A DNA stretch of 64,000 nucleotides from Protoeuglena noctilucae. Lineage: Eukaryota. The translations under genes and the position numbers were made by a program. Location: contig OY253674.1 in NCBI GenBank assembly GCA_958009085.1, forward strand, positions 1,178,001 to 1,242,000, given 5' to 3'. The notes below the pieces were generated by a model, which ran no database searches, was not told where the DNA came from, and saw only the letters and a program-made list of their open reading frames with translations. Below, piece by piece: positions 3,087-52,900 of the stretch. Every line of letters starts with the position of its first letter. Position 1 is the stretch's first letter.

Positions 3087-6000
3087 CTACTCCTCGCCGC
3101 CGCTGGCGTGGTGCTCCCAGACCTGCTGCACGTGGCCGCAGTGAAGAAGCTTCCCAGCAACTTTCACGGCGTGAAGCTGCCGCCGAAGGTTGCGGAGGGG
3201 CACGCACTTCAGAGCCTCGCCCTCCGCAGGCTCCAGGAGCGACAGCTGGGGAGGCTGCAGCGCTCCCAGGTTGGTGTAGAACGACAAGCACTGGTTGGAC
3301 AGGTACCTCAGGTCGCATGGGGCCCTGTGCACCGGGGCCACCAGGGCGCAGAGGAAGGTCCCGGCACCGGAGCTGGTCTTCGCCTCAACCCCGCACACGA
3401 CCCTGCCCGTCTGCAGCGTGCCCCTGTCCGGGAGGTACTCGACGAAGGACAGGGTCTCGTCGGTGGCGACGATCCTGGCCCGGTCCCCGCTGGCCGTCCC
3501 GATCTCGACCGTGGAGGTCAGCGCGACCTCGCCCAAGACGTGGCAGGGAAGCCCCGCGCCCTTGAGGGCGTTCAGGAGGTCCGCCTTAGAAACGAAGTCT
3601 TCCGCGCGTCCCTCGCTGCACAGGTCGTTCTTCTTCAGGACGGTCTTCACGCCCTTCACTTGGTCCTCGGGCTGGGACGGGACCGGCTGCTCCGCCCTCG
3701 CCCGGCTCTTGATGACGGAGGCCGCCCTCTGAGAGATGACGCTGGTGCTCGCCTGCGACAGGGCTCGGGGGTCAGTCCAGCGCGGCTCAGCATGGCACGC
3801 GGGTCGAGCGCCGTGCGACCGCATCGAGACGTGTGAGTCGCAAGAAACGCGTCCTGCGTGGGCTTCCCCGCGTCGCCTACGCTGGGCGGCGCTTCTTGCC
3901 TGTACCTGCACGTCGCCCTTGCCGTTCGTGCGCGCGTTGGCAATGGGCTTGTGCATGCGCTCGGCGTCGTTCATGCTGCCCAACATGATGGAGCCGTTCC
4001 TCGCCACCACTGCAGGGAAATGCGAAAGCGCGTGGCACTTCTGGCTGTTCTCGATCTTGCTGAAGAGGGGCTTCTCCGTGCGGACGATTTCGTGGCCACG
4101 CAGCAGCGTCTTGAGCACGACCTGCGGCGACACGGCAGCGACAAGGCTTCCAGAGTGAGTAAGGGGCAGCGAACGATGGGGCTGGTGTTGGAGAAGGCCT
4201 CACGTGGAGGACCTTATTCAGCTGCGCGTCCGCCGCCTGCGCCCCTGCGATGGTGGCGCTCTCCAGGGACCATTCGGCATAGAGCTGAAGGCATGCCAGG
4301 GCTACGGCCACGAGCCCAACCCTCTCGTCGTGCACGTCTTTGCTGCCCGTAGGCTCTGCAAGGGATGTGGTGGTGGGGAAACACTCCCGGGGTTCCCCGG
4401 CCCGCATCGCGATACCCGCAGCTCCTCCCGATGCCCTCGCAGCGCTGACTGTCGGCCTCGCCTCGAGAGAAGAGCTCGACGAGGGCGAAAGGCAGAGCTT
4501 GGATCAAGAACCTCGCCTCGTACGCCTTTATCTTCCCAAACGGGTCCACGAGGCTCAGCACGATCTGGAAGGTCTCGCCCCACGGACGGGCGTGGATCCA
4601 TGCCGGGGCCTGCGCTCCACCCACACGACGATGGACATGCCAGGTGAATACCGAGCAGCTGCGGCGCCACTGCAGGCAACGCACGCCATTGCCTGACCTG
4701 CAGCTCACCTTGGCATCCGCAATGATCGATGCGAACGCAGCCAAGAGGGCGTTTGCCTTTGTCGCAGACTCTCCCGCTGCCGCGTTGTTGTAGAGGACGG
4801 TCAGTATGCAGAAGGGAACAGTCTTGCCCAACATTCCCAGTTCCACGGTGTGCATGGGGTCAGGTGCTTGGCCCTGATACAAGTCCGACCCGAACTCGTC
4901 CCAGTACGACAGGGCAGGAACCACAGGATGAATTTTGCTCTCCCTGGCTTGTTCGTTGGCCCTGGCCGTCCCCACGTCCCTCCTCAAGCGCAGGATGTGC
5001 TGCACCTGGAGGCGATGCAGCGCGACGGTGCGAGGCGTGCGGCAGTCATCCTGGAGGCACAGCGGGCACGACCTGACGGCCAGCGTGGACGAGTTGGCCA
5101 TCATGTCGTTCAGCTGCGCCGCCAAGACGGGAAAGACGATGACTCTCCCGACGTCGGGGAGGGTCATCCACACCCCACCGGACCTCGCCACGCCAATCAG
5201 CTGCCGGTCCACGGCAGCCAGCCGCCGCTGGATGGCCTCTCTGTTGTTCAGGTCTGCCTGTGACCCCGGAGTGATCCCGGACACCTGCGGGGGCCTCGAG
5301 CGACAACTCATACACGCGGCGTGGTGGTGGACGTGTGGGCTGCAACGCCGGCAATCCTCCTCTCGCCTTCATGGACTCGACGGTGGCCACGGTTCGCGGC
5401 GTCCCTGTCCTCACGGCCTTGCAAGGCGACAGGAGGTGCATGTGGATGGGCGTCGTCGATGCGCCCTTGGTCATCTCCACCCCGTCGATGCTGTACGCGA
5501 CGGGCACGAGGAGCAGCCGGGCGTGCAGCTCGGGGCGGACTTTGCCAGCGACAGCCTCGGCTATGTCGCTATACCCCTTCGCCCGGGAGAAGGTGAGCTT
5601 CTCGTGGATGCTGAGAAGGTGAGCTTCTCGTGGATGCTGGGATGCGTCTCATGTGGTCTCGCCCGCGCCTGGCGTGACCGTTCCCGTGCCTCGCTGAAGT
5701 CTCGCATCAACTTAACGAGCGTCTTGGGCTTGATCTGCTCCGCGTGCACCAGCATGTCCCTCAGCACCGTTATCGTTTGGTAGATGATGGTTGTGCTGCC
5801 CTCCTCTTGCAAAACCTGCAGGCCGTGCGTGCACTGGTTGGCGTCAGCCCCCTCGGCCGCGTCCAAGGCCCTCGACACAAGCGGCACCGCGGCGTGACGC
5901 ACCTCGTACTGGCCATGGATGCTGTTGAGTGAGGTGTGGAACGTGCGGTGGGAGCGCCCGAGGTCGAGAAGGTCGTCGCGGATGTCGGGGCGCAGCTTCA

Positions 6001-11200: not shown

Positions 11201-14200
11201 GCGGTGAGGATGGCTCCCTTTCGTGCTTCGGTGCAGCTTTCGTCTACACAAAGGCATTTCCTACATGTTCATGCCGAACATAAAGATACTATAGAGCATC
11301 TCTCTCCCCCACACAGGGTGGCTTCGCCAGTGGCTTCACGTCTTGGTGGGCCGACCTTCGCATGGACATGAACGCCACCGCAGCCTGCACTGTGTCGGGG
11401 TGCCGGGAGAACCCGAGCCTGGAGGTGAGGGGGGTGACGGTGATGGGATGTGGGGCTGGAGGGTGAGGTGGGGTGACCATGTGGGAGGTGAGGGGGGCGG
11501 CAGCGAGGGTGGCGTGACGATGCATCGCATGTACCCCACGCAGCCCCGGTCTGCCTCATCCCCTTGCTCCACTTAAGCTGGTACCACGCTGCCACATCGT
11601 TTAACCTCTCGCAAACCCTCGCTCTGTTACCCTCGCCCTGCCCCACCCGGTGCCTCCCCCACCCCCGCAGCGCAAGCGCCTGCTGCTCCTCCACGACCTC
11701 CGCGTCCGCCTGGACCCCGGCTATCACCTTTACGAGAAGTGCTGGTGCCAAAGTGGGGCCAAGCTGCGTGTCACGGTGCCAGAGGACACAACGCAGACGG
11801 TGGTCGCGGTGAGAATGGTGCTGCGAGGGGGGTGCTGTGAGGGGGGGGTGCATGGCATGGTTTCTTAACAGCAGGGCACACCCATATGCTGTTTGATACA
11901 TACTGCATCATGCAAGCAAACCCCCACGCTGCTTCACGCAGAGCTGCAAGAGCGAGCAGGGCAACCGGGCGTACGTGGCGGTGGCGGCGGTGCTGGCGTC
12001 AGTGCTGGGGGTGGCCCTGGCGGTGCTCATCGTGGTGTGGCGGTGGAGGGCGCAGGGGCAGAGCCTCAGGTGGGGGGAAGGGTGTTTGTCTCTCTCTGTA
12101 GGCCGTGTGGGTGTGCGTGGGGTGTGCGTGGGGTGGGTGTGGGTGTGGGTGGGTGTGGGTGCGAGGGGTGAGTGTGGGTGTGACCTGTGGGAGCTGCCAG
12201 TGCCTTTGCAGCCGTGCATGGCTATGAAGTGAGTAGCTAACTACTCCCATATCATCCCTCCCACCACCTCCCACCCCCCCAGGCTCCCCGACAGCATAAC
12301 TGTGAATTGCCAACCCCATAGCAACCCCCTTCATCTCCCTCATCCCCCAGGCTCCCCGACAAGGCCGCGACGGTGCTTGTCACCGACATGGAGGGTTCGA
12401 CGGAGCTGTGGGAGTGGAACGCGATGGCCATGGAGACGGCGCAGGCGGTGCACGACGCGGTCATGAGGCGGGTGCTGAGGAAACACCGGGGATTCGAACT
12501 CTTCACCGAGGGGGACTCCTTCTCGGTCGCATTCCACCAGGCGAGTGGGAGGGGGAGGTGGAATTTATGATATCTATGGTATCTATAGTGGTATCTATGG
12601 TGTCTATACTGTACTACCCAAGCGTCACGGCCAAGACCACCCATGCTGATAGCTGAATTGGATGGAAACGGCCTGTAGCGTAGTGACGCTATCAACCGCC
12701 CACGCCCAGCCACCCCCCTCCCGTCACATGCCAATGCCTCACCACCCACCCGCCATGACCACACCCACAACACCCATCACCACCCCCGCTCGCCCCCCCC
12801 AGACCATCGACGCCGTCCGCTGTGCCTGGGAGGTGCAAGCAGCTCTCTTGGCTGCCCCCTGGCCCCCCGAGCTCCTCAAGCACCCGGCCTGCGCCGAAGT
12901 CTACTCGTCAGCCGCGGCAGGGGGGCACGTGCTGTTCCGGTGAGCTGGGCTGTGCTTGCATGGATGGTTGTTAATATAGTAGTACTACAATTTGAATGGT
13001 AAGGAGAACCGCTGTATTCACACCCAACCCCCCACTGCTACCCCCACTACCACCCCCACTGCCACCCCCACTGCCACCCTCACTGCTACCCACACTGCTA
13101 TCCTCACTGCTACCCCCACCCCTTCCCCCCCAGTGGCATCCGCGTGCGCATGGGCATCGCGCGCGGCACCTTCTCCCGCACCAAACTGAACGGCAAGCTG
13201 TCGATGCCTGGCCCCCTGTGCTTCTCGGGCACCGCGCTGCCCCTGGCCACGGCCGTGCAGGCGATGGGTCATGGGGGGCAGATACTGGTGACGAGGGACT
13301 GCCACGAGGACGTGGTGGACAACCTCAGGGGTGAGTTATAGGGGATGGGAGTAGTGATGGAGTAATGAGGAATACTGGGATACTGTACAACATGAGGGGT
13401 GAGTGGGAGACTGGGAGGAGGTCATTGGTTAGTTAGAAGTAGTACCACACACGTACATGCACACTTAGTCATATCCACCATCTCACCCACATTCAACCCC
13501 CTCCCCCCCCTCACAAACCTCGACATCTTCTCCCGCACCCTCTCTCGCAACCACCCAAACGCACTCTCTCACTCTCTCTGCATCGCCCTCATCCACCCCC
13601 ACTTACCCCCACCCACCCCCAGACCTCGACGTCTTCTCCCGCACCCTCCTGGCCGAGCTGCCCCCGGAATTCAAATCCCCAGACCCTGCCACAGCCTCCC
13701 AGCCCAGCCGCACCGCCCACACCCCCGCGATACGCGATTCGGGTGTGAAGGACCTCTCGGTGGCGATCAGCGGGGATGGATCTGCCGCCATCGTCGCACA
13801 CCCGGCATCTGCCACTGTGCGCGGTGCAGAGCAGGCCGTGGGATTCCGGGACCCCACCTCCCGATCCGCGACCGCCGGGCAGCGGCCCTGGGCCGGCAAC
13901 CACCCCCTCCCGCCCCGGGCAGTGCCCTTGTCATCGCTTGCGGTGGCGGGGCCGGGCGGGACCACCCACCGCCGCCCGCCCCCGCCCATCCGCACCGGCA
14001 GTGGGACGTCGTTTGTCGATGTGAGCGACGCCGCTGCGCACGGCAGGCACCTGGCCACCACCCCCCGGGCCTCCTCCCTCTTTGGCCCGCCCGCCAGTGC
14101 TCACGACTCCGCTGCCCCCCGCACCCCGGGTGCCAGCAGCAGCCGGCTGGGATTAGAGGCCGCGAGTATGCTGCGGAGGGTGGCGTCGGGGGCTCTCGAG

Positions 14201-17200
14201 TCGCGATCGCGTACCCGCTCGCACTCGCACTCGCTCGCGCAGCCGCAAAGCTCTGGCTTCGCCCGGCCGACGAGGGCAGGGTCGGGGGTGGGGCTGCCTG
14301 AGCCGTCATTGCCGTCTGGGTCGGGCTTAGCAGGACATGGGGATCCTGGTGCGTCCGGGGTGGATGATAGCGGCGGTGCGCTGGCGGCAGTGGCGGAGGG
14401 GCAGGGGGCGGAGGAGTGGGCGGGGGCGGGGGTGTGCACCAACTCCAGCACCACCCCTGACCCCGGCTCGCTCACCGCCACGCTGAGCGGCACGCTGAAT
14501 TGGATCGGGCTGACGCTGGGGGTGCGCACGGGGTCCCGCACGCACTCGCGGGGCGCGAGTTCGAATTTCCGTGCGTCGGCGGACGCGCACCCAATCGACC
14601 ACGCGTGCTGCAGCAAGGTGGTGTATTTTGGGGAGCATGTGCTGGTGGCTGCTTTGGAGGACAGCGGGACGGCGACGGGGGGGGAGGGGGGGGCGGCGGG
14701 TGAGTTGGGGTGGCGGGTGGGGGGTGGGGTGTTGTGGGGTTGCATGTGGGGCGGTTGGGTGTGGTGAGGCGGCGGGTGAGTTGCTGGTGAGGGGGTGGGG
14801 CGAGATGCGCTGTGTGGGACTGGTGGGGTTGCGGGCGAGATGGTGAGGTGACATGTGGCGGGGAGTCTGGGACTGTCTTTGCCACAGGTAGCTGCGTTGG
14901 TAGCAGCGTTTGTAGCTGGCATTCGCCACATCCCTCCTTTTCACCCCACCCCGCAGGCGCCACCCCCGGCGCGGGCTCAGCGACCGCCGAGGCCGCCCTC
15001 ACCCGGCTGCTGCGTAGGGGCGGTCAGCGGGACGGCACGACGGTCACCTCCGTGTACCAAGTGCTCCCCCGGTGGCTGCTCACCCGCACCGCGCACTTCC
15101 CGCCCCTCTCCTCGACTATTCGGGTGTCGAATGGCTTCCCCCAGGCGCCTCTGGCCAAAGAGTACCTGCGGCAGTGGGCGGGGCTGGACCCTCCGCGGCC
15201 CATACGCGCACGCGTGACCATCTGCTTCGCGGGTGAGAGAGCGTGGGGTGGGACGGTATGGGACGATATGGAATGAGATTGGATGGGGTGGGGTGGGTGG
15301 GTCACCCTCGCATCTCTACCACCCTTGCACCTGCCCATCTCTCCATCCTCCCGCAGCCATCCACGGCTGAAAGACCGTCTCTCTCGCCACCCCTTACCTC
15401 AATATACCCTTGACCCCCCTCCCCCCCCCGCAGCCATCCATGGCTGGAAGACCGTGGCCGGCCGCTCCTCCGACCCCAACGTGCTGGTGTGGATGTTCAA
15501 CAGCACAGGCCGGTCGCTGCTGTCGCTGTTCGGGGGCACCGAGTGCCGGCAGAAGGACGAAGTCATGCTGCTGGCGTTTTACACTGAGAGGGGGGCCATC
15601 GAGTGGGCGCTCATGCTGGGCGAGATGCTGTCCTGCGTGGGGTGAGATGGGGAGCGTGTTGGTGTAATGGGGAGCATAGTGTATACTAGACACAGGCAAC
15701 AATTCCAAAGACGAGTGCATGGACCAGTCAATGTTGTCAAGCAATCACCACCACCTCCAATGCCCCACAGATGCCAATACACATGCACATGCGCATTTGT
15801 TACCCCCTCCCATCCCCACCCTCACCCACTCCATGACACCCCCATCTCCCCATCTCCCCAGGTGGCCCCCGGATCTCTACCGCGGCCCAGAGACGTTCGT
15901 CCGCGGCCCATTCGGGGCTTCCCACGCACTGAGGGCCAGGGTGGGAATCTACGCCGGTGTGCCGTCCGACCTCACTGTGCACCCCGTGTCAGGTGAGTTG
16001 ACATGTGGCGTGGATATCGAGAGTTGTTTGTATGGAGATCACGACTTGAGACAAATCGTTCTCTTACACCGCCTGTTACTCTGACAGCCCCCTTGTCCCC
16101 ATTTCATGTCGCGCCGAGTGGAGTATCCCATTCGTGCACTCACCCCCACTCCCTCTCCCCCCCAGGCCGCGCCGAGTACTTTGGCCCCGTGGTCAACCGC
16201 GCCGCCCGTCTCTGCCATGGCCTGGTGGCGCCTGGGGAGGTGCTGGTAGAAGAGACGGTGGCCAAGGCGGCGATGGCGGCGTGGGGGATGGGGGGGGTGG
16301 CGAGCGTGGGGGAGGGGAAGGGGAGCGGGGTGGCGGACTCGCGGTGAGGGGTGTGGGAGTGGGGTGGTGGCAGAGTGGGGTGGGAGTAGGGAAGGGTGGC
16401 AGTGGAGTGGGGTGGTAGCAGAGTGGGGTGGGGTGGTTGGTAGTGTGGTTGGTAGAGTGGGTTGGTAGTAGGGAAGGGTGGCAGTGGGGAGGGGTAGCAA
16501 TGGAGTTGGGTGGTTGGTAGATGGGCAGGGCAGAGAGGGCAGTTGTGACAGCATGGCATGGCAGCGTTTGCACCCACGCTCACCCCACTCTCAACCCCTG
16601 GTACTTTACTCTCACCCCCCCACACACATGCAGGCCCCGCACCCCCCAGCCCACATCTCTGTCCAGTGACCTCCGCCACGTGGCACTGCGGGCGGCCGCA
16701 ATCAAGTCCGGCCACTCCGCCACGTCCCCGCAAGCGTCCCCCGACGCGCGCGCCTCCTCCCTCGCCCACGCAAGCGCACCGCCCCTCCCCACTGACACCG
16801 CCCAAGCTGCCCCGCCATCACCCCATGTACCGCCCGCCTCATCACCGCCCCTCCCCAGCCCCACCGCTGCGCTTGACCTCACCCCCGCCCTCGCCGCGAC
16901 TGCCCCGCTGCCGCCCTCCCCGGGGGCCGGCGTGGCTCTTGCCCTCGACACCGCTGTGGACGAGAGCGGTGCGACGGGCGACGTCGCCTTCAGCCCCACC
17001 GCCGCTGCTGCTGAGCGGCGGGCGTGGTTTTCTGAGGATGTAGGTGGTGGTGGTAACGGTGGTGGTAATGCCAGCCCCACAGCGGCGAGGGCGGGCGGCG
17101 GGGTGCGCACATCGATGGCGGGGGGGCGGGGGGCGGCGGGCGGCAGCAACTGGCTCCGGCGCATCTCCCAGTCGCTACGCCCCAACCCCGCCTCGCCCCA

Positions 17201-33129: not shown

Positions 33130-36100
33130 ATGGCCGGCAGGGTCGCTGATTGGACGGCATTGATGACGGACGTCGGCCTGGCAGGGCCGGCGGGGCCCGC
33201 TTCCACCGACCCGGGTGCGCGGCGTCCCTGCCGCCGCTGCTGTGCGAACAGGCTCGCCAGCGAGCCCCTCCGGCCCTTCACCCGGCCTCTCTTGCTTTGA
33301 ATCGTTTCATATCTTGTATATCTTTCTACCCGCAGTGGAGCGGCTGCTGACCTCGGACCCCTCGCGGCTCACGGAGCCCATCAAGGTGCGATCCGTGCCC
33401 TGGCAGCCCCGCGCCGGCGCGTCCCAGCCCCGCCGCTCGCGCGACTCCTTGTAAGCAATCTTTGTTTATTACACTGTCCATTCGCTGTCGTTGCAGACAA
33501 TCAAGGACAAGTACGAGCTGCTGCCGGCCTTCCTGCGGGTGAAGGGGCTGGTGCGCCAACACATCGACTCCTTTAACTACCTCATCACCCACGAGATCAA
33601 GAAGATCGTGGCAGCGAAGGGGAACAACGAAGTGCGGTGAGGGAATGCGGGGGACGGCCGCAGCGGTGCCTTGGGCTTCGTCGCCACGCTTCCCTACTGG
33701 TCCCGCGTGCTTACCAGGGGCAGTGCCTCCTGCTCATTGCCATGGATTCATTGCATTGCATTCCGTTCCCGCTGCTTTCTCTCAACTCGGCACTCTTACC
33801 CTTCGCCCACTCCTCCCTCCACACCGCCCTCGCTCCACGCCCCACCCCTTGCCATCCCACCCCTCCCTCACCCCTCCCCATCCCACCCCAACCCCCGCAG
33901 CTGCGACGCGGACCCCGATTTCTATCTCAAATACACCGGCATCTTCGTGGGCCAGCCAACCGTGGAGGAGGACTACGTCACCAGCGGCGTCACGCCCCAG
34001 CAGTGCCGCCTGCGGGACATGACTTACTCCGCCCCCGTTTCTGTCAACATCGAGTATGTGCGCGGCAAGGAGGTGGTGTCCAAGACGGGCCGGCCGGGGG
34101 AGGGCGCGGTGGTGATTGGCCGCATCCCGCTGATGCTCCGCTGCCGCAACTGCGTGTTGCACGGGAAGGACGAGGCCGAGCTGGCCACCCTGGGGGAGTG
34201 CCCGCTGGACCCGGGGGGGTACTTCATCACACGGTGAGGTGATGGGTGGAGTAGCAATGGGTAGTTGGGTGCGACGGTAGCGGAGGATCAGTCAACACAT
34301 GATTGTACGGTGGGGGTCGTGTGGGGGTGGTTAGTCATGTTGTGAGGGTGGTGATGGGTGGGTTGGTCATGGGGTGTAAAACAGTGGCTAGGGTGCATGG
34401 GTCGTGACACCCAACACACCCCATCCACACCCACACAGCCGCAACAACTCAGCAACCCCCCACCCTCATCCCAACACCCCCCCCCTTCCCATCCCCCCAG
34501 TGGCACGGAGAAGGTGGTGATGATTCAGGAGCAAGTGAGCAAGAACCGCATCGTGGTGGCACTCGACGCCTCCGACCAGCCCTGCGCGTCGGTCACCTCA
34601 TCCACCCACGAGCGCAAGTCCAAGACAGCCGTGATCGTCAAGCACGGTCGCATGTACGTCAGGCACAACGCCTTCGGGGACGACGTCAACGCGGTTATTT
34701 GTCTGAAAGCGATGGGGATCGAATCAGATCAGGAGTGCCTGCTGATGGTGGGGGGGGAGGCGGCGGTGGCGGCTGTGGTGGCGCCCACGGTGCAGGAGTG
34801 CGCGGCGCTGGGGGTGCACACGCAGGTGAGAATGGGGTTGTGGGGAGTAATGTGTGGTGAATGGTGGCTGAGTGTGGTTGTGGGAGTGCGCGGCGCTGGG
34901 GGTGCACACGCAGGCAAGGGGTGGTGATTGGGTAGTAAGGGTATAGAGGGTGCCATCTACATGTGCACGAGTATGCTGTCCCACATCTAACGATGACGCC
35001 CATAACACCCCCCCTCCCCGCAGATGCAAGCCCTGGAATACCTGGGGTCCAAGGTCAAGGTCACGCGGCAGGGGGGCGTGAGGGGGGGGAGGACCAAGGC
35101 TGACGACGCCAGGGACATCATGGGTGAGCGGATGTGGTAATGCACACCATATGCGTTGTTGATGTTAATGTTGATGTTGATGTTGCTGTACTCAAGAATG
35201 CTATATATACCAGTAATGATGTGAGCAGTGATGATACACCGAGCCACCACCCACCTCACCCTCACCCACACCCCCACTCTTACCCACCCCCCCCAGCCAA
35301 CGTGGTGCTCGCCCACGTCCCCGTGGTCAAATTCGACTTCTCCGCCAAGGCGGTGTTTCTGGCGGCCATGCTTAGGCGGGTGGGGGTGGCGATGCTGGAT
35401 CCCCGGGAGGTCGATGACGTCGATTACTACGGCAACAAGCGCCTGGAGCTGGCCGGTCAGCTATTGGCGCTGCTTTTCGAGGATCTTTTCAAAAGGCTCA
35501 ATGCGGAGCTGCGCAAGCAGGCGGAGGCCCACGCGGCCAAGGCCGGGAGGGGGGCGACGTTCGACGCGGGAAAGGCGATGCGGCCGGACATCATCACGTA
35601 CGGGCTGGAGTCGGCGATCGCGTCGGGTGAGTGGTTGAAAGCAATTGCAGTGTAAATGATGGTAACATGGCAGTCGTAGACATCATCACACACGTACGGG
35701 TTCCAGTCAGCCACCAGCTCACCCTTCACCCCCACACATCCCCCACCAGTCATTAACCTCCCAACCCCTCCCTTATGACCCCACCATTATAGCTCATCAC
35801 CACCCCTTTATACCCATTACCCCCAGGCAACTGGACGATCCGCCGCTTCCGCATGGAGCGCAAGGGCATGACGCAGGTTCTATCCCGGCTGTCGTTCATA
35901 TCCGCGTTTGGCATGATGACGCGGATCATGTCGCAATTTGAAAAAACGCGGAAGGTGTCGGGGCCGAGAGCCCTGCAGCCCAGCCAGTGGGGGATGCTCT
36001 GCCCGGCCGACACGCCCGAGGGGGAGGTGAGGGGGGGAGAGGGGACGGGAGTTGATATGAACTGTTATAGTATATTGGGAAGTGACATGGATATTGTAGT

Positions 36101-39100
36101 AATTAGACATGATAGCAGTAACTGGTTGCCACGCTGTGCCCAGCCGACATGCCCGAGGCTCGACTTTGGAATAATCTAGCATAATTATAACGTTATTAAC
36201 ACCAATAATCCCACTCGCTCTCCCACCCCCTTCAGTCCTGCGGCCTGGTGAAGAACCTCGCGCTGATGGCGCACATCACTACAGATCGTGATGCGTCTCA
36301 CGTGAGGAGGGCGGCTTTGCTGCTGGGGACGCGGCCGGCCGAGGGGGTGCCGCCCAACGAGATGTTCGGGAGGCCGGACGTGGCGGTGGTGAGTGGTTTA
36401 TGGGATATGATGGCATGTAATGGGGTGTTTGGGAGACCAGACATGATACCAACACCAACATCAATGCGAATACCAACACCCACACCAGCACCAACACCCA
36501 TACCAACACACACTTACCAACCCCTCCCCCCCAGGTCTTTTTGAACGGCCAGGTGCTGGGCCTGCACGCCCAGCCATCCATGCTGGTCTCCCGCCTGCGC
36601 TCCCTGCGCCGTGCTGGCCGCATCGACACGTTTGCGTCCATCCACGCGAGCGGGGGAAGGGTGCACATCGCCACGGATGGGGGGCGCGTCTGCAGGCCGC
36701 TGATCATCTGCGATCATGGGGTGAGGGGGGGAGACAATGGGATGCGATAATGAGTGGGGCGTGTAGTGTTGGGTGGGAGCGTGGTGATGGGCGCCTGTCA
36801 TTCGCGACAATGGTAAATATAGTATCATTTTACTATTACTATTACTATCACTATCACTATCACTATCACTATCACTATCACTATCACTATCACTATCACT
36901 ATCACTTTCACTGTTACTATCACTGTTACTATCCCCACCTCTCATCCCTTTCATCACCCCCCCAGATCCCCCGCGTGACCCAGCCCCACATCGACGCATT
37001 GAAGAGGGGCGACATGCACTTTAACGACTTTTTGTCCATGGGACTGATCGAGTACCTGGACGTGAACGAGGAGAACAACGCGCTCGTGGCGCTGTACGAG
37101 TCGCAGTGCCACGCACAGGCGAGGATAGATGGTACTGCTAAGGGAGGGTGTGGTGGATATGGGGTGTTAACAGTGCTATTAGTATAAGTATTATTCTAGT
37201 TATATTTCATAGGTAGTATACTCTTATGTATGATAGTTAATATATCTATTACTATATTTACTCACTGTTTATAATACATAAATACAATCAACATCCTCAC
37301 CCATCGCAGGTGACGCATCTGGAGATCGAGCCCTTCACGATCCTCGGGGTGGTGGCGGGGCTGATTCCCTTCCCCCACCACAACCAGTCCCCCCGCAACA
37401 CCTACCAATGCGCCATGGGCAAGCAGGCCATGGGCAACATCGCATACAACCAGCTGAACAGGCGAGGGGGTGGATGGGTATAGTAGTGGTGGCAGTTGTA
37501 CTAATACTAAGCAACAGTTTGACTCTCACTATGCACCTACTCTATCAACCCCATCCCTGCCACCCAGGCTCGACTCCCTCATGTACCTCCTTTGCTACCC
37601 CATGCGCCCCCTGCTGACCACGAAGACGATCGAGTTGATCGGATTCGACAAACTGGGCGCGGGGCAGAACGCGTGCGTGGCCGTGATGTCCTACTCCGGC
37701 TACGACATCGAGGACGCCATCGTCATGAACAAGGCGTCGCTGGACAGGCGAGGGTGTGGTTGTTATTGAATATTATTTCATATACATATCATGTTTATCT
37801 TAATTATCAAAAAATTATTGATTCTATGTGTCACTGCAATTATGTTGTAATATTGTAACAGCCAGTAACTGTAACTACGAGAATGAATTGTAAATATCAT
37901 CACCCTGTTCCTTCTAACCCCCAGGGGCTTCGGCCGCTGCATCGTGCTGAAGAAGTACGGCACGACTTTGAAGCGTTACGTGAACCGTACCATGGATTCG
38001 ATCTCTATCCCGAGGGGGCCGAATGGGGGGAAGGCCACGGGGAGGTACAAGTGCGTGGACGTGGACGGCGTGGCCACGTGAGTGGGTTTGGGTTTGAATG
38101 CATGATTGGGGATGGGGTGGTGTTGCGTGTGATTCAAATGTGTGGATGGGGATGGGATGGGTGGTGATGTGTTTCAAGTGGATGGGATTGCTAAAAGGGG
38201 TTGGGATGTCAGTGAAAGTTCCGGTCCTTTCACCCCGTCAACTCTTACACTCACCCCCACCCACCCACCCCCCAGCGTGGGTGAGAAGATCTTCCCCGGC
38301 GACGTCTACATCAACAAGCGCGTGCCCATCAACCCCAAGGAGACAGTCGAGGCGGGCATCAACCCAGCGAATATGGCGAGTGGCAACTATGGCTAGTAAA
38401 ATATAATGATGAGCGGGGATGCGATTGGTGGCCGATTGGTGGCCCTCTCGTTTACTGGTGCAAGTACATATGGACTACACCCCCACTGCCACCCCCACTG
38501 CCACTCTAACCCCCACACCCCCTCCCCCTCATCTCAGCCCGAGCACAAGTACCGCCCCACCCCGCTTATCTTCAAGGGCGCGCCCGGTGAGAACTCGGTC
38601 GTGGATAAGGTGCTGCTGACATCGAATGAGACGGATTCGGCGGTCATCAAGGTGTTGCTCAGGCACACGCGGCGGCCAGAGCTGGGGGACAAGTTCTCGT
38701 CACGGCACGGGTGAGGGAGATGCTATCGCTATCGAGGGGGATGTTAGTGTGTGGGAGTAATCATCAACATCGCTGTTTATACACACATCCACTCTCTTCC
38801 TCACTCCCTCCAGTCGAAAACGCGTGGTGGGCAACATCGCTGTTGATGTATAGAATACAAACACCCACTCTCTCTCTCACCCACTCGCAGCCAGAAGGGC
38901 GTGGTGGGCAACATCGTGAAGCAGGAGGACATGCCCTTCTCGGACCGCGGCATTTGCCCCGATCTGATCATGAACCCCCACGGGTTCCCCTCGCGCATGA
39001 CGGTGGGGAAGATGATCGAGCTCATCGGGTCCAAGGCGAGTGGGGGATAGGGATGATGAGTGGTTGTTATTTATATGATCAATAATAACAGGTGATAGAG

Positions 39101-40560
39101 CTCATCGAATCCAAGGCGAGTGACGGGTGATGTTATGGTTGTTGTTGATAATGACAGATGATAATGACAGATGGTCGAGCTCATCGGGTCCAAGGCGAGT
39201 AGCTAGTATATTATGGATGATGTTATGGTTATAAGCATAGTAGCAGATGATCGAGCTCATCGGGTCCAAGGCGAGTAGCGATGGATGTTGTGGTGGTTAC
39301 AAGCATAGCAGTTGTCGATTACAACAGATGATCCTCATCTCTCTCTCACAATCTCTCACACAATCTCACCCTACACAACCTCACCACCACCCCCACCCCC
39401 CTCACCCCCCCCAGGCGGCGGTGCACGAGGGCCGCCCCTTCTACGGCACTGCGTTTGGGGAGCCGTCGGGGTTAGCCGACGACGTGGAGACGATCGGAAG
39501 ATGCCTGACTGCCCACGGGTTCAGCTACCACGGCAAGGACATGCTCACCTCGGGTGAGGGGTATTGGTGATGTGATGTGTATTGAGATTGATTATATTGA
39601 TTATATTGATTATGACTTGTGATATATGTAGTATGGTTCAGCTGCCACGGGAAGGACATGCTCACTCGGGTGAGGAGTGTTCTAATTGTATTCAATTGTT
39701 GTGTCAAAAAAATATATGGTTACCGTTTGATGGTCAACTACCCGATGTCCCCCAACCAACCCAACCCCACCCAACCCCCCCTCCCTCCCCAGGCACCTCC
39801 GGCGAGCCCCTGACTGGCTACATCTTCATGGGATGCGTCTATTACCAGAAACTCAAGCACATGGTGCTGGACAAGATGCACGCGCGAGCCACAGGCGAGG
39901 GTTGCATGCGACTGTAACTAAATTGAACTGATTGTGTAGTTTGTCAGTTACTCCGGCAATATCCGTTGTCAACTCTGCCGATATCATTACTAGACATGGA
40001 CAGGTGGCTTGCTCTGCCTCATTTAAGCGCACCCGCACCCGTACACGCACCCGCACCCACACTCGCTCAACAACCCCTCCTCCCCCACCCACCCACCCCC
40101 AGGCCCCCGCATGCTGATGACGCGTCAGCCGACCGAGGGCCGCTCCCACGACGGCGGTCTGCGATTGGGGGAGATGGAGCGCGACTGCTTGGTGGCCTAT
40201 GGGGCGTCGATGCTTCTCATGGAGAGGCTCATGGTCTCATCGGACGAGTTCACCATTCAGGCAAGGCAGTGTGATGGGCGATGATTACAATAAACACACA
40301 TTACAACTGCCCAATGGAAGCATCTTGTGCACTGACACACACACACTCACCACCACTGCCCATCTCGCCCACCCCTCCAGGTCTGCACCCAGTGCAAGCT
40401 CCTCGCGTATTGGGACTTCGCCCTGCGTGCGGGCATGTGCAGCCGCTGCCGCTCCTCCAGCCACATCACCACCATGAAGGTGCCCTACGCTGCCAAGCTG
40501 CTATTCCAGGAATTGCAGAGCATGAACATCGTGCCGAGGCTCACGCTGGCGGATGCGTGA
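33130..40560 (+). CDS. RPC2: DNA-directed RNA polymerase III second-largest subunit, ~21 exons
   Basis: [113 protein letters not shown]; the start codon is the least certain part. Confidence 0.97.
36831..36931. repeat. (ACTATC)n hexanucleotide microsatellite in an RPC2 intron
   Basis: About 11 perfect tatcac units with degenerate flanks. Confidence 0.9.
39011..39276 (+). repeat. Four copies of a 31-bp exon-end plus GC donor sequence (GATGATCGAGCTCATCGGGTCCAAGGCGAGT)
   Basis: Copies at 39011, 39091, 39170 and 39246; the first is the true RPC2 exon end (MIELIGSK|gc). Confidence 0.9.
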
Positions 40561-46156: not shown

Positions 46157-49100
46157 ATGCCTCCCCGGGTGAGCGCGCGAGCTGGGGCCCTGGCGTGAAC
46201 ATGTTGACGTGCGTCCCGCGCTCGACCGAGGCTCCGGTCGGGGCGCGCCTTTGCCTGCCACATCTGCAAGCCGGAAGAAGTAGGGAGGGTTGAGTGGGCC
46301 TCTCAGCGATGGGCCCGGGGAGGCGGGGGACGCGAACGAGAGCATGTCGGACGTGGTTCCCGCCCTGCGCTCGCGTTCGCCGAATGCGGGGTCGTTTACG
46401 GAAACGTGGTATCTATGTCACTCACGCGACGTGGCCCCTCACGGGTTCCCACGCGCCCTAGGGCCGCCCGTGGACTGCCCCGGGGCGCGCATGTCGACGA
46501 CGAGCCCGCGCCGTGCCTCCGCAGAGGGACGGGGGAAAGGGGAAGGGCGCGAAGAAGGAGGAGGACAATTTGAACGAGGAGGAGAGGCTCAGGCGCGTGC
46601 AGCGACGGCGCGGCGGTCGGGAGAGGCGGCGTCGCGACGAGCGGGGCGCAAACATCGCCCCCTCCGCCTCCCCCTCGCTTTGCAGGCGCAATGTCGAGGA
46701 GCGTCGCGTGCAGCTTCGCGCGCGGTTGCTTCGTGAGCAGGAGTACGCGCGCGAGCACGCGGCGAAGATCAACACGGCCTGGCGCCAGCTGCTGCGGAAG
46801 GCCAAGGTGGAGGAGCTGCGGGCGGAGATCCAGGTGCTGAGTCAGGGCCACGAGAGGGAGATCGACCGTCGCGATGCGGTGATCCAGATGCTCGACCGGG
46901 ACCTGGAGGACGCGGAGGACCAGTATTTAACGGCGCTGCGGGGGCACATGCAGGCGAGGGGCGTGAGGGGTGGGGTGGAGTGAGGGGGGGCACATGCAGG
47001 CGAACGACGGTGGCGGTGTGGTGGTGTGAATGAGAGTGGCACATGGCGCGTGACACACGCACAGCGCCCCGCATTGGTGGCACTCCGCCCACCTGTCACC
47101 CACCCCGCGCTGCTCCGCCTGTCCTCGCAGGCCCTCGACGCTTTGCTGGACCTGCAGGAGCTCCGCATCCAGAAACTGGACAAGGAATTCCGAGAGAACC
47201 TGTCCATGGTGAGACTGGGTATTATACTGGCATGGATGTACAGTGGACGTGAAGGCACAGGCGGCGTGCGTGTCGCTGTGTGTGTGTGCTGCCACCGCCA
47301 TCCTAGACCGGCACAAGCGGAGTGAGCGTCGTCACTCCCAACCCGCACCACCCTGTTCCCTCTCGTCATATCATCGTCTTCACTCATCCCATCTCACCCT
47401 CTCCCCCCTCATCACTCCCCCAGACGGAGCAGGAGTTCGAGTCCGAGCGCCAGGAGATCGTGGCCACGCACGTGCGGCAGAAGAAGGACCTGCAGGACAT
47501 CATTGTGGCCATGGAGGCGGAGTTCGCCAGGATCGCGGCGGAGGCGGAACAGGAGTTCGAGGCGGAGAGGACGGGTGAGATGGGATGAGGGGGTGGGGGG
47601 GGGTGGGGGGAGGGGGATTCAGGGAGAGGGGTGAGGGGCACGGGAGTTTGAGGCGGTGAGGACGAGGACGGACGGGAGGGTGCACTGAGATGGGAAGGGG
47701 TGTTGAAGTCCCAGTTGTAACACCACCCCTTCTCTCACCACCCTCAACCTTCTTCATCTCCCCAGACATCAAGAACCGTGCTCAGGAGGAGTACCACGTG
47801 ACGCGCATCCAGCAGAACAACGCCATCGAGGACTGCGAGGCGCACTACGACAAAATGTACAAGACGTACATGCAGGCGAGATGAGGGAGTGGGATGGGTG
47901 CTAGACGTACATGCAGGCAGGAGGGGAGGGAGTGGGATGGGGTGGGATGCACATGCAGCGGGGTGACTGATGATATGGGGGTTGGATGTTCACATACACG
48001 CATTCCCACTGTCCGCCCCCACCAGGCTTCACTCTCACACCACCCTCAACCCCACCCCCACCATGCCCCCCTCTCAAACCCCCCTCACCCCCTCTCACTG
48101 TCCCCCCCACTCAAACCCCCCTTTCCCAACCGCAGTCGAGCGAGAAGGACGCGGCGGACTTCCAGCGACTAGCACAAACGGACAAGCAGGACGCCAAGGA
48201 GATTGAGCGGGAGATGAACCGACTGGCGCGCCTGCACCACGCCGTGCAGCACTGGCGGCTCAAGATCGCCAACAACGAGGAGGAGTGGAGCGACCGGAAC
48301 GCGGCGCTGAGGGACGAGAAGGACGTCATGACGAGGCACTATGCCAAACTGAAGGGGCAGATGGACCGCTTTAGAAGACAGCAGCAGTCGCGGCTCAAGG
48401 AGCTCAGCCGGCAGAGCGGGGCGGCGATGGAGGCGCTGCGGACGAGGATCGCCGTGGCGGAGAGGATTTTGAAGCTGGCCGAGTTCTGCAGGAGGCTCGA
48501 GACGGAGGCGAGGGGGTGGGGGGGTGGGGGTTGCATGGGGGGGTGTCGGGGGTGGTGTTAGGGGTGGCATGGGTAGTGGGGGGTGTAATGGGTGTTGGGT
48601 GTTGCAATTCTTACACCCGCATGCTGCATGGGGTGTTTGTGAGTGGGTTGATGGCATGGACAGTATTACTGGCGTCGTCGTGCGACCGGTTCACGTCACG
48701 GCGCACTCGCTCCGCAATGATCAATGACTACTGCAGCATGTCGTGACAGCCTCTCGTCTCGCTTTCCCCGCAGCAAGAGAAGGTGCTTCCCTTCTGGAGC
48801 CCCGCGGAGGCCCTGGCGGACGAGCTGCTGGAGGGAGACCTGAGGGAGGCACAGGCAGAGGCGTCGCAGGTGAGGGGAAGGTGGGGTAGATGAGCGAATA
48901 AGAGGAGTGCGGAAAGATGGAAGCAGAGGCACCGGCGGAGGCGAGGATGGTTAAATGACGGCAGGGTACTGTTCAGGTGGTGGTAGGGCACAGCGATCGT
49001 CGCCCACTGTCACACCCACACCCCCAGCCGCCGCACCCACCTCACGCTCACCCCCCACCAACCCCAACCCCACTACCAACCACCCCCTCCCCCCAGGCCC

Positions 49101-49987: not shown

Positions 49988-52900
49988 ATGAGTTCGTCAA
50001 TAAGAGAGGACGACGCGGCGCCGGCCGCGGTGTCCGGCGGCGCAGCGACGCAAGCGGGGAGAGAACCGGGGAGAGCGGGCGCGATGCCCCTCTGGGTGTT
50101 TGCGCTCGCGGCCATCTTCGGAGCGCTCAGTTTGTGGTCGCTGTGGGAGCAGGATATCTGGTGGCAGGTGATGCCGGCACCGTCGTATCGCGCCGCATCG
50201 CTGCGCGGCCAGCGCACTCTGCGTTGTTGGCCCCCCCTACCCGTCTTTCCATCGACGGGGCGGCTGCGAGAGGCCGCCCGGGCCCTTAATCGCTGCCGAT
50301 TCGTTTTATGAACCCTCCGCCGTCCAATGCCGTCGCTCCGGACCCCTCCTCGGCCCGCCATGGCGTGAAAAGGTTTGCCCGGCTCGCCGCTCGCCCCGCA
50401 GATCCGCGCGGGGGAGCACATCCTCGACACCGGGACCATGATCGTCGAAGACGAATGGTCGTACACGGCGAGTCCCCTCCCGCGCCCGCCGTCGCCAGCA
50501 CCTGCCCCGTAAATGCAAAGCGCGCGTCTTTGATGCGTCATTCGCGCCGCCCGCCCTCCCCGCAGGTCACCGGCGTCGAGTGGAAGAACGTGCAATGGCT
50601 ATCCACCATTCCCATCGCCATCGTCTACCGCCTCTTCGACGTCCCCGGCCTCATCGCCCTCCGCGGGGTCACGGCATCTCTCGTGGTGAGGCCATGTCAA
50701 TGGCAATGCTTACAAACGCTGCATAAGCACTGACCTGCTTGCGTTCGCTGACTCTGAGCATGCATGCATCCACCCTCACATTTGTTTTAACTCACAAGTC
50801 ACTCTCCGCACGCTTTCGTTTCATCCGCCACTCCACCCCCGCACCCTCCCCTGCATCTACCTCTCACCTCCTCAACCCTTCCCCCTCCCCCCCAGTTCCT
50901 CGGCCTCGCCCGCACCGCCTTCCGCACCCGCATCCCCGGCCCACCGGGGCCCTGGGACCGATCCGCATGCGCCCTCGTCCCCGCCCTCGCCATGCCCGCC
51001 ATCGCATTCCGCGTCCAGATACGCAGCGAGTTGTTCGTGATCGCCGCACTGGCGTGGACCGCGTCGATGATCGCAGGCGCACCCCCCGCCCCGCCCTCGC
51101 CCCCACCCCCGCCCGCACCAGACGGCGTCAAACTCGCATGGACGCTGCTTGCGGGGTCCACCCCCCCCGCACCCCCACCCGCCCCACGCGCCCCGCCCCG
51201 CCGCCGCCCCGCTCTGCTTGCGCTGTTCGACGGCGCATCGCCACCCGCCCCGCTCCTCCGCACCGCCCTCCCCGCCGCTGCTGCCATCGCCATTGTCGCC
51301 AACCTCCACTTTGGCCTGGTGCCATTCGCGGTGGCACTGGCCGGATCCTGGTGCCTGGGTGACTCTGGATTGACGAATGGGTTTCACCGACTGATGGTGG
51401 CAGCTGCCATGCCACTGGCAGCCGCGCTCAGCCCCCACCCGGTCTACGGGTGAGAGTGTGCGGGGGTATGTGTATGTGTATATGTATGTGTGGTGAAATA
51501 CTTACTTTACATATCTTGACTGCTATGCCCTTTCCATTGCACCTACACACCGACCCAACTACAACCCGACACTCATCCCACCACCATTATTTACAGAACC
51601 CTGCTCCCCCCCCCCAGTCTCCGTTTCATCTGGCACCACGTCTTTTACTTCCACGACAAGCTGCTGTACAACCCCGACCACCAGCGAATGACGTGGGGTG
51701 ACCTGCGCCATGCGCCCCAGACACCCATTCTGGCGGCACTGGCGGTGGCGGCGCTGTTTACCACAAGGCGATCGGACAGGTGAGGAGTAAGCGGGGGGAG
51801 AGAGAGAGGTGCGAATGCATAGCCGTGCCCGCAACCACACCCCAATCACCCACACCACTCCTCATCTCCCACACCCACACCCCTCTCTCTCAGTCCCCGT
51901 GGCTACACGTGCCTCCCCATCACTAACACCCACTCCTCAAATCATTCACTGCCCTCACCCACACCCACACCCACACCCACACCCACACCAACACCCACAC
52001 CCCCTTACTCTCATCTCACTCATTCCAGTCCCCGTGGCTACGCGTGCCTTCCCATCGTCTTTGCCTCCCTCGCCGCCTGGTCCCTGGGGTGCGCAGACCG
52101 CACCCGAGTGCTGCCATTCGCCATCATCTACGCCACGCCACTCGCCACTGCAGCTGCCGTCAGGGTGAGGGAGCGATGGGGTGGGATGCTATGCGATGCG
52201 TCAATCATGGGTGCTCGACAGATGCGTGCATGCCACGAGTGCCATTCACAACACCAAAGACCACACCTCTCTCTTACCTCACCCCATCTCTCCTCTCCTC
52301 TTCTCCCCAGCTGGCACGTGCCATCCAAACCTCATGCACCTCACCCCATCATCTCACCCCACCCCTCCACCCCTCCTCTCCCCACTCAGCTGGCGCGTGC
52401 CATCCAGACCCTTGGCTTGGAAGACCCCTCCGCCCCCTCCGCCCCCGCCCCGCCACCCCGCAAGCCCCCCCGCCACGCCCGCTCCCTCCTTGCCACCCTG
52501 AGGTCGCTGGTTCGAATCCCATCGGCTCACCTGGCCGCCCTTTTCGCCACCGCGCCCCTCCCCTGGGCCGGCATCGTGGAGGCCGTGTCTAGCTACGTCG
52601 CAGTGACCGAGCATCTGCCCAAAGGACTGGTCATCGCACCCCGCGTGTGGCCGGTGGAAACGGTTCGATTCCTCCAGAGGTACCGGGGCAGCGTGCGGCC
52701 CCACATCTACCACACCAACGACTTCGGGGGTTACCTGGTCTACCATCTGCAAGACTACCAGGCGAGTGTGTATGGGGGCGGGGGTGGTTCATGGAGTGGT
52801 GCAAATGGGTATGGGTAACATTAGATATGTTATATGGTTTATAGCAATGATATAATAACACCCACTAACACGACTGCTATTAGGCAATCGCCATGTCTGT

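What the first reader, a model, noticed from the sequence alone, without database searches (positions are those of the whole stretch)
39011..39276. RPC2 intron holds three extra 24-nt pseudo-microexons ([12 protein letters not shown]), each flanked by CAG and GCGAGT
Seen: the exon end is repeated at ~76-80 bp period. The exon-derived 31 bp are nearly identical (0-4 mismatches) while the 45-49 nt spacers have diverged strongly. Each intronic copy is preceded by CAG (the true exon has AAG), giving AG|24 nt|GC units that preserve frame. Inference: candidates for alternative microexons, recursive-splicing stepping stones, or gene-conversion-maintained decoys in an essential Pol III subunit.
Basis: partly seen in the sequence, partly recalled or inferred. 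Interest (0 to 1): 0.7.

Follow-up and report, generated by a model that had tools for sequence, protein, structure and literature searches.

The report
Introns echoing their own exon ends
In a marine green alga about one intron in twenty carries a short, apparently unused copy of the neighbouring exon's edge, and the mutation pattern suggests these copies are scars of DNA exchange between very different gene versions rather than hidden mini-exons.

Summary
The repeats are real: an RPC2 intron (39036-39414) holds three copies of the last 26 exon bases plus the GCGAGT donor, with spacers only 54-66% alike; DNA contigs of another sample carry the array. They are not microexons or recursive sites: the CAGs score in the lowest 1.4% of this genome's acceptors, the implied introns (52-56 nt) are shorter than nearly all predicted introns, and the one informative RNA contig uses only the first donor. 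The array is one case of a genome-wide class: 58 of 1106 predicted introns hold a direct copy of the adjacent exon edge (controls 0-0.2%), 14-47 nt long. Across 76 junctions, exon-versus-copy differences favour silent sites (ratio 0.26; neutral-copy simulations 0.42-0.55), and copied donors stay intact while the next bases diverge, although copies carry frameshifts and stops. Best reading: silent junction-spanning duplications whose exon part was copied or refreshed from a working exon of a divergent allele during recombination. No second allele was found, and this array alone shows no silent-site bias. Single cases are known (human F7, CBS); this scan noted a donor array in another genome.

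The parts
33336..40560 (+). RPC2 (Pol III second-largest subunit), 20 modelled exons, 19 introns (7 GC-AG), open frame of 1149 codons plus stop; one further intron upstream (about 33215-33335) is seen in RNA, so intron numbers used here are one lower than from the true start
38891..39035 (+). Exon whose last 26 nt (39010-39035) are copied into the following intron
39036..39414 (+). Host intron, 379 nt, GC-AG; removed whole in the RNA contig
   Evidence: X9 joint 39033-39413 skipping 379, depth 14.2
39090..39121 (+). Copy 1: 4 differences (1 silent, 3 in changed codons), donor intact at 39116; CAG scores -1.8 (0.7 percentile); only copy with AG|GT
39169..39200 (+). Copy 2: 1 non-silent difference, donor at 39195; CAG scores -3.1 (0.3 percentile)
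39245..39276 (+). Copy 3: identical to the exon end, donor at 39271; CAG scores -0.1 (1.4 percentile)
39326..39339 (+). In-register partial unit (8 identical bases, then 6 more after a 3-nt gap): likely the microhomology at the duplication breakpoint
   Evidence: sequence; role inferred
39340..39414 (+). C-rich tail with CTCAC motif and the authentic acceptor (score 6.3, 68th percentile)
34883..34919 (+). Donor-side echo in intron 4: 31 of 31 exon bases identical, but followed by a different valid donor (GCAAGG versus GTGAGA) and a barely alignable intron head
35679..35711 (+). Decayed echo of the upstream exon's 3' part in intron 6 (score 27, local control maximum 20)
36133..36158 (+). Echo of the upstream exon's end in intron 7, donor lost
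38811..38839 (+). Acceptor-side echo in intron 15 (CAG plus start of the next exon); RNA uses the outer, authentic acceptor (skip of 180)
39635..39675 (+). Donor-side echo in intron 17 with a 1-nt deletion and no upstream AG; RNA uses the first donor (skip of 239)

Best explanation
The array is a silent tandem duplication across an exon-intron junction, one of a genome-wide class ('junction echoes'). Step 1 (shown for this locus): the unit is 26 nt of exon end plus about 54 nt of intron head; splicing from the first donor to the only good acceptor removes all copies, so the protein is unchanged and the duplication is tolerated. Step 2 (inferred): the first duplication used a short match between exon and intron (the partial unit at 39326), which explains the shared CAG, and the array then grew by out-of-register exchange. 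Step 3 (inferred from the class): the exon part and donor of a copy stay exon-like because they descend from a working exon of another, divergent allele: either a break in the intron was repaired from the homologous chromosome, synthesis ran 15-45 nt into the exon and was joined out of register, or later gene conversion with unduplicated alleles refreshed the copy. Alleles differ little in exons (mostly silent sites) and much in introns, which gives conserved cores and divergent spacers with no selection on the copy itself. Steps 1-2 about 0.9 and 0.7; the confidence given is for the whole including step 3.
For: First donor only in RNA, also at the two neighbouring echo introns. Class: 42 of 1106 introns match the last 50 nt of their upstream exon and 18 of 1106 the first 50 nt of the downstream exon, versus 2 and 1 of 3312 for other exons, 2 and 0 of 1106 reversed, 2 of 962 and 2 of 971 for exon parts 50-100 nt away. 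Best copy at 76 junctions: non-degenerate sites 43 of 1031 differ, degenerate 86 of 537, ratio 0.26, gene bootstrap 95% 0.15-0.36 over 38 genes, same on donor and acceptor side and without RPC2; neutral-copy simulations with the same detection threshold give 0.42-0.55, 0 of 40 reaching 0.26 under each of three mutation models, while 60% constrained history gives 0.19-0.25. Donor bases were not used for detection: +1 to +3 differ at 7 of 120, +6 at 13 of 40, +7/+8 at 34 of 80. Intron part 0.66 identical versus 0.56 random and 0.94 for the exon part, uncorrelated (rho 0.14; 38 events). Copies are not coding now: 14 of 16 indels break frame, 3 changes make stops, 1 of 50 donor-side copies has an acceptor scoring over 3, 2 of 50 donors would give an open in-frame extension. 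Exon part never over 47 nt (0 of 58; 21.4 expected). HAP2/GCS1 and two SPO11/TOP6A-family loci are in the genome.
Against: No second allele was seen: X6 and X7 match the window almost letter for letter and metagenome scans gave nothing closer than about 75%. This array alone has 1 silent change out of 5. G/C-to-A/T transitions as a whole are not significantly silent-biased (27 of 469 versus 19 of 529, p 0.13); the excess sits in non-CpG transitions (18 of 360 versus 6 of 381, p 0.011) and G-C transversions (20 of 234 versus 11 of 764). The donor test is modest (p 0.021) and G-runs after +5 may slip. In-register remnants are not enriched over the class (39 events, p 0.43). No consistent age gradient among multi-copy arrays. 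Gene models come from my own self-trained predictor (18 of 19 RPC2 introns recovered, trained on them). The model needs high allele divergence in the population, which is unmeasured.
Confidence: 0.55

Rival explanations
1. Plain same-chromosome tandem duplications; spacers diverge fast by slippage in G/T-rich simple sequence, while cores are young or homogenised by conversion from the adjacent exon on the same DNA molecule. No other allele is needed.
For: Spacers are homologous and simple in composition; some arrays have identical intron parts (C12, C14); echo genes also have more intron-internal repeats (16 of 309 versus 13 of 936); CpG changes are equal at silent and non-silent sites, as for neutral decay; this array has no silent bias; detection favours well-kept exon parts.
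Against: Predicts a non-degenerate/degenerate ratio of 0.42-0.55; observed 0.26, upper bootstrap bound 0.36. Does not explain identical exon parts followed by a different but valid donor (34883). Needs a separate reason for the 47-nt ceiling.
Confidence: 0.27
2. The copies are kept by selection as decoy or auxiliary splice signals (for example extra U1 sites) that help recognition of the longer, AT-richer introns.
For: 42 of 50 donor-side copies keep a donor scoring over 3; echoes cluster in genes with long introns and strong G-rich heads.
Against: Selection on an RNA signal gives no reason for codon-position bias in the copied exon part; 8 of 17 sampled blocks have none; several copies have lost the donor or acceptor.
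Confidence: 0.09
3. One reading: the 24-nt units are alternative microexons or recursive-splicing stepping stones in RPC2.
For: AG|24 nt|GC units keep frame; donors score at the 69th-87th percentile; copy 1 would regenerate a donor (score 5.1, 34th percentile); my gene finder called copies 2 and 3 as exons; contigs cannot show rare isoforms; 9 joints were not displayed.
Against: Acceptors at 0.3-1.4 percentile; no branch-point-like motif, C-poor tails, implied introns of 52-56 nt; X9 has zero depth over 39103-39363 and no 24-nt insertion; inclusion would add 8-24 residues beside a motif conserved in human and yeast RPC2; across the class copies lack acceptors and carry frameshifts; the CAG is explained by one breakpoint.
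Confidence: 0.06
4. Assembly artefact: reads of several haplotypes placed in tandem.
For: Conserved cores with divergent spacers resemble stacked alleles.
Against: A single X6 contig spans 39012-39274 without differences; X1-X6 hold 0.95-1.00 of sampled words.
Confidence: 0.02

Closest known systems
Minisatellites whose first monomer spans an exon-intron boundary: human F7 intron 7 (37 bp), CBS intron 13, LMNB2, PDGF, 6-16 (PMC1557585; abstract and passages seen)
   Same: Unit = exon end + donor + intron head; donors reiterated; the most upstream donor is used (F7, LMNB2, PDGF).
   Different: There, single loci with reiterated identical donors; here 2-5 units with spacers diverged to 54-66%, mostly single duplications, in about 5% of sampled introns, on both donor and acceptor side, with silent-site bias.
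Human CBS 844ins68 (PMC2630376; abstract and passages seen)
   Same: 68-bp duplication of an intron/exon junction, neutral because the distal site is used; the authors propose gene conversion between duplicated and unduplicated alleles.
   Different: There the proposed flow is from the silent copy into working alleles at one locus; here the inferred flow is from working alleles into silent copies, at many loci.
[quoted passage not shown]
   Same: Short tandem duplication of coding sequence hidden by splicing.
   Different: That makes a new intron from a duplicated AG/GY; here existing introns are lengthened (median 245 versus 185 nt in the same genes) and no new intron forms.
One-sided invasion / aborted synthesis-dependent strand annealing with end joining (mechanism recalled; only a reference-list title seen in PMC4888836)
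   Same: Would give a duplication with one homologous and one end-joined side, templated by the homologue.
   Different: I found no report of it as a genome-wide source of exon-edge copies in introns; not tested here.

Membership tests
Alternative microexon (definition recalled) | Very short, frame-preserving, AG..GT/GC flanked | tested here: met
   24 nt, CAG and GCGAGT
Alternative microexon (definition recalled) | Functional upstream acceptor with branch point and pyrimidine tract | tested here: not met
   Scores -1.8, -3.1, -0.1 (0.3-1.4 percentile); no motif, 10% C
Alternative microexon (definition recalled) | Flanking introns of spliceable length for the organism | tested here: not met
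   52-56 nt; 4 of 1316 predicted introns under 60 nt, 1st percentile 78
Alternative microexon (definition recalled) | Included in mRNA | tested here: inconclusive
   Absent from the X9 contig (depth 14.2); contigs drop rare forms; X11 gave no displayed joints
Recursive splice site (definition recalled) | Acceptor directly followed by a regenerated donor | tested here: inconclusive
   Only copy 1 has AG|GT; regenerated donor 5.1 but acceptor at 0.7 percentile
Recursive splice site (definition recalled) | Very long host intron | tested here: not met
   379 nt
Recursive splice site (definition recalled) | Lariats or intermediates at the site | not testable with these tools
   Only contigs were available
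Junction-spanning minisatellite (F7/CBS/LMNB2 type) | First unit spans the exon-intron boundary and reiterates the donor | tested here: met
Junction-spanning minisatellite (F7/CBS/LMNB2 type) | Most upstream donor used | tested here: met
   Skip of 379 in X9, one run
Junction-spanning minisatellite (F7/CBS/LMNB2 type) | Units alike over their whole length | tested here: not met
   Spacers 54-66%
Junction-spanning minisatellite (F7/CBS/LMNB2 type) | Copy-number polymorphism | tested here: inconclusive
   X6 has the same array; no other strain found
Introner / transposon-derived intron | Similar intron sequence at many unrelated loci | tested here: not met
   38800-39700 matches only itself and one paralogous coding stretch in G000; each echo matches its own exon only
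Intron gain by proto-splice-site duplication | Duplicated AG/GY turns the intervening sequence into a new intron | tested here: not met
   Unit starts AG|AT in the exon; RNA removes one 379-nt intron
Inter-allelic repair or conversion product | Copy matches another allele's working exon and intron head | not testable with these tools
   No second haplotype reachable; indirect support

The most novel reading that the evidence does not exclude
In this alga, recombination between alleles with conserved exons but strongly diverged introns routinely misfires at the exon edge and leaves 15-45 nt of the other allele's exon plus its intron head inside the intron. About 5% of introns (13 of 35 of those over 300 nt in the first sample) are such chimeras, so a single haploid genome stores readable fragments of other alleles, records cryptic sex and allele diversity, and shows a route of intron lengthening that I did not find described at genome scale.
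Probability: 0.45. Interest if true: 0.72.

Novelty: new variant of a known kind. Interest (0 to 1): 0.5.

Why it matters
For RPC2 itself the array is probably without function. The class matters more: it offers dozens to a few thousand natural tests of how a spliceosome picks among duplicated donors and acceptors, it is a trap for gene finders (mine called false microexons here), and, if the allele origin holds, it is a way to detect outcrossing and estimate allele divergence from one assembly and a concrete mechanism for intron expansion in specific gene classes.

Tried and rejected
Exact-pattern scan of metagenome contigs for the same exon end plus donor: 0 matches (records near this genome may be left out). 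Related-locus scan: 80 loci, best about 75% identical, no conspecific allele; a rough echo scan of about 64 introns in them gave 2 unverified hits (L151 weak, L163 24 nt), against 3 of 12 for the own gene with the same procedure, so uniqueness to this alga is not shown. Protein search: nearest RPC2 75% identical, green-lineage names dominate; lineage below 'green alga' not determined, and a literature search with a guessed class name gave nothing relevant. In-register remnant test over the class negative. Junction-composition test for microhomology weak (donor side 5 of 300 simulations, acceptor side 36 of 300). My first silent/non-silent test (pN/pS 0.14) overstated the effect because it ignored base composition; replaced by polarised counts and simulations. 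RNA run X11 gave no displayed joints and little cover; X7 covers the array only partly. Age gradient along arrays: not consistent. Earlier-finding look-ups by place and relatives were empty.
Full report
Observation. The window lies on contig C7 of a 26.3-Mb, 27-contig genome of a photosynthetic eukaryote (21 light-harvesting matches) whose RPC2 is nearest to green-lineage proteins, at most 75% identical. Twenty exons from 33336 to 40560 give one open frame; two exons hit Pol III RPC2 best in the PDB. The intron 39036-39414 (379 nt, GC-AG) carries three copies of the last 26 exon bases plus GCGAGT at 39090, 39169 and 39245, with 4, 1 and 0 mismatches. Spacers are 44-49 nt, 54-66% identical pairwise and above shuffles (0-14 of 500), so whole units were duplicated. 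A partial fifth unit sits in register at 39326-39339; its 8-nt match to the unit start, preceded by C, explains why each copy begins CAG (inferred). Contigs of DNA run X6 (not the sample flagged as a possible source, but the same study) carry the array unchanged.

Microexon and recursive readings. I built a self-trained gene finder on 864 kb (16 blocks of 50 kb plus the window); it recovers 18 of 19 RPC2 introns it was seeded with, and about 21% of predicted donors are GC (274 of 1324). With its splice models the copied donors are strong (69th-87th percentile) but the CAGs fall at 0.3-1.4 percentile, against 68 for the true acceptor. They lack a branch-point-like motif (present in only 36% of real introns, so a weak criterion) and have 10% C in the last 20 nt, below the 1st percentile. 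Using them would need introns of 52-56 nt; 4 of 1316 well-scored introns are under 60 nt. In RNA run X9 one contig (depth 14.2) joins 39033 to 39413, skipping 379 nt, and depth is zero over 39103-39363; the neighbouring echo introns are also spliced at their outer sites (skips of 180 and 239). Limits: contigs hide rare isoforms, one RNA run was informative, nine joints were not displayed, and recursive removal would give the same end product; only copy 1 could regenerate a donor (score 5.1).

The array belongs to a class. Six of 19 RPC2 introns hold a direct copy of an adjacent exon edge. In the first sample, 1106 of 1323 predicted introns passed score and length filters; 42 match the last 50 nt of their upstream exon and 18 the first 50 nt of the downstream exon (58 introns, 5.2%; 45 of 1018 without the window; no complexity filter in this count). 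Controls: other exons 2 and 1 of 3312, reverse strand 2 and 0 of 1106, own exon 50-100 nt from the junction 2 of 962 and 2 of 971. Eight of 17 blocks have none. Echo genes have more, longer (196 versus 133 nt), AT-richer and CpG-poorer introns (29 versus 114 genes). I then added 140 kb chosen next to rich blocks (biased for counts, used for mutation patterns): 1316 of 1566 introns passed, 108 copies were found, 16 low-complexity ones were dropped, leaving 92 copies at 76 junction sides in 71 introns; 73 touch the junction within 2 nt; 11 junction sides have 2-4 copies. The exon part is 14-47 nt; none of 58 junction-touching events exceeds 47, where 21.4 are expected for random placement.

The copies are not working exons now: 14 of 16 indels break frame, three changes create stops, 1 of 50 donor-side copies has a good acceptor in front and 0 of 23 acceptor-side copies a good donor behind; 2 of 50 copied donors would give an open extension. 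Yet they look as if they had been constrained. Taking the best copy per junction, 43 of 1031 non-degenerate and 86 of 537 degenerate sites differ from the exon (ratio 0.26), bootstrap over 38 genes 0.15-0.36, 0.24 on the donor side, 0.30 on the acceptor side, 0.26 without RPC2. A copy that is neutral from birth beside an exon that takes only silent changes gives 0.42-0.55 in simulations with the same detection threshold, 0 of 40 reaching the observed value in each of three mutation models; a copy constrained for 60% of its history gives 0.19-0.25. Donor bases, not used for detection, differ at 7 of 120 (+1 to +3) but 13 of 40 at +6 and 34 of 80 at +7/+8 (p 0.021 against half the +6 rate). Intron parts are 0.66 identical, random 0.56, exon parts 0.94, with no correlation (38 events). 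Against this: the bias is not significant for G/C-to-A/T transitions overall (p 0.13), CpG changes look neutral, the excess lies in non-CpG transitions and G-C transversions; the RPC2 array itself has 1 silent change in 5; models are predicted; slippage in G-runs can inflate divergence after +5.

Mechanism. Shown: junction-spanning duplication, first donor used, protein unchanged. Inferred: such events survive because the outer splice sites still define one intron; F7 shows that reiterated donors can be functional yet silent behind the first (PMC1557585, abstract and passages). Inferred, about even odds: the copied exon edge and donor come from a working exon of a divergent allele, either at birth (repair of an intronic break from the homologue, synthesis 15-45 nt into the exon, out-of-register joining; mechanism recalled, only a reference title seen in PMC4888836) or by later conversion with unduplicated alleles, which pair with the copy when aligned from the far side. 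Both explain conserved cores, divergent spacers, silent bias and changed-but-valid donors such as 34883; they cannot be told apart here. The genome has HAP2/GCS1 and two SPO11/TOP6A-family loci, compatible with sex but no proof of it. A caution from Chlamydomonas: sex is infrequent and gene conversion was reported as low overall (PMC7186780, passages). The 47-nt ceiling may reflect repair synthesis or selection against longer pseudo-exons. The main rival, same-molecule duplication with fast-slipping spacers, keeps about a quarter of the odds. No second allele could be found.

Known relatives and novelty. Single loci of this anatomy are known in humans: F7, CBS, LMNB2, PDGF, 6-16 (PMC1557585) and CBS 844ins68, for which gene conversion between duplicated and normal alleles was proposed (PMC2630376, abstract and passages). 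Intron gain by tandem duplication differs in making a new intron (PMC2891723, passages; review PMC3488318, passages). This scan noted a 22-fold donor array and an acceptor array in other genomes (unchecked notes). Ten full-text searches (listings seen) showed no genome-wide account of exon-edge copies in introns with silent-site bias; subscription papers and supplements, including any genome paper of this alga, were not seen. Two unverified echo-like hits among about 64 introns of other eukaryotes warn that the class may be more general.

Verdict. Observation confirmed; microexon or recursive function unlikely (0.06); new variant of a known kind. The locus is ordinary in function, the genome-wide pattern and its possible allele origin are worth a follow-up: interest 0.5, 0.72 if the allele origin holds (probability 0.45).

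Noticed in passing
genome sample: About 21% of predicted introns are GC-AG (274 of 1324); 7 of 19 in RPC2.
   Followed up: partly
blocks on C3, C7, C8, C10, C12, C14, C18 versus C1, C2, C4, C5, C6, C9, C16: Two intron regimes: runs of genes with long, AT-richer, CpG-depleted introns (o/e about 0.6) with G-rich heads and C-rich tails, and genes with short GC-rich introns; echoes occur almost only in the first. Could reflect methylation or recombination domains.
   Followed up: partly
L063:6112-6537 (G000:C12): Echo array of alternating unit types (a-b-a-b-a') in which two very different spacers were later duplicated together almost perfectly.
   Followed up: partly
window 13517-13542, 15350-15378, 51891-51921, 52165-52389, 46940-47130, 47575-48135: Further acceptor- and donor-side echoes in other genes of the window.
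   Followed up: partly
L163:3606-3827 and L151:1826-2499: Possible exon-end copies in RNA polymerase subunit introns of other eukaryotes from metagenomes (24 nt with 1 mismatch; 17 nt weak).
   Followed up: no
window 5587-5639: Perfect 26-nt tandem duplication; exon or intron context not checked.
   Followed up: no
L002 (G000:C11:772080-772224): Paralogous second-largest polymerase subunit (reads like RPB2; label inferred) without an intron at the position of the RPC2 host intron.
   Followed up: partly
window 33213-33335: RNA contig shows an additional first intron of 121 nt upstream of the modelled RPC2 exons.
   Followed up: no
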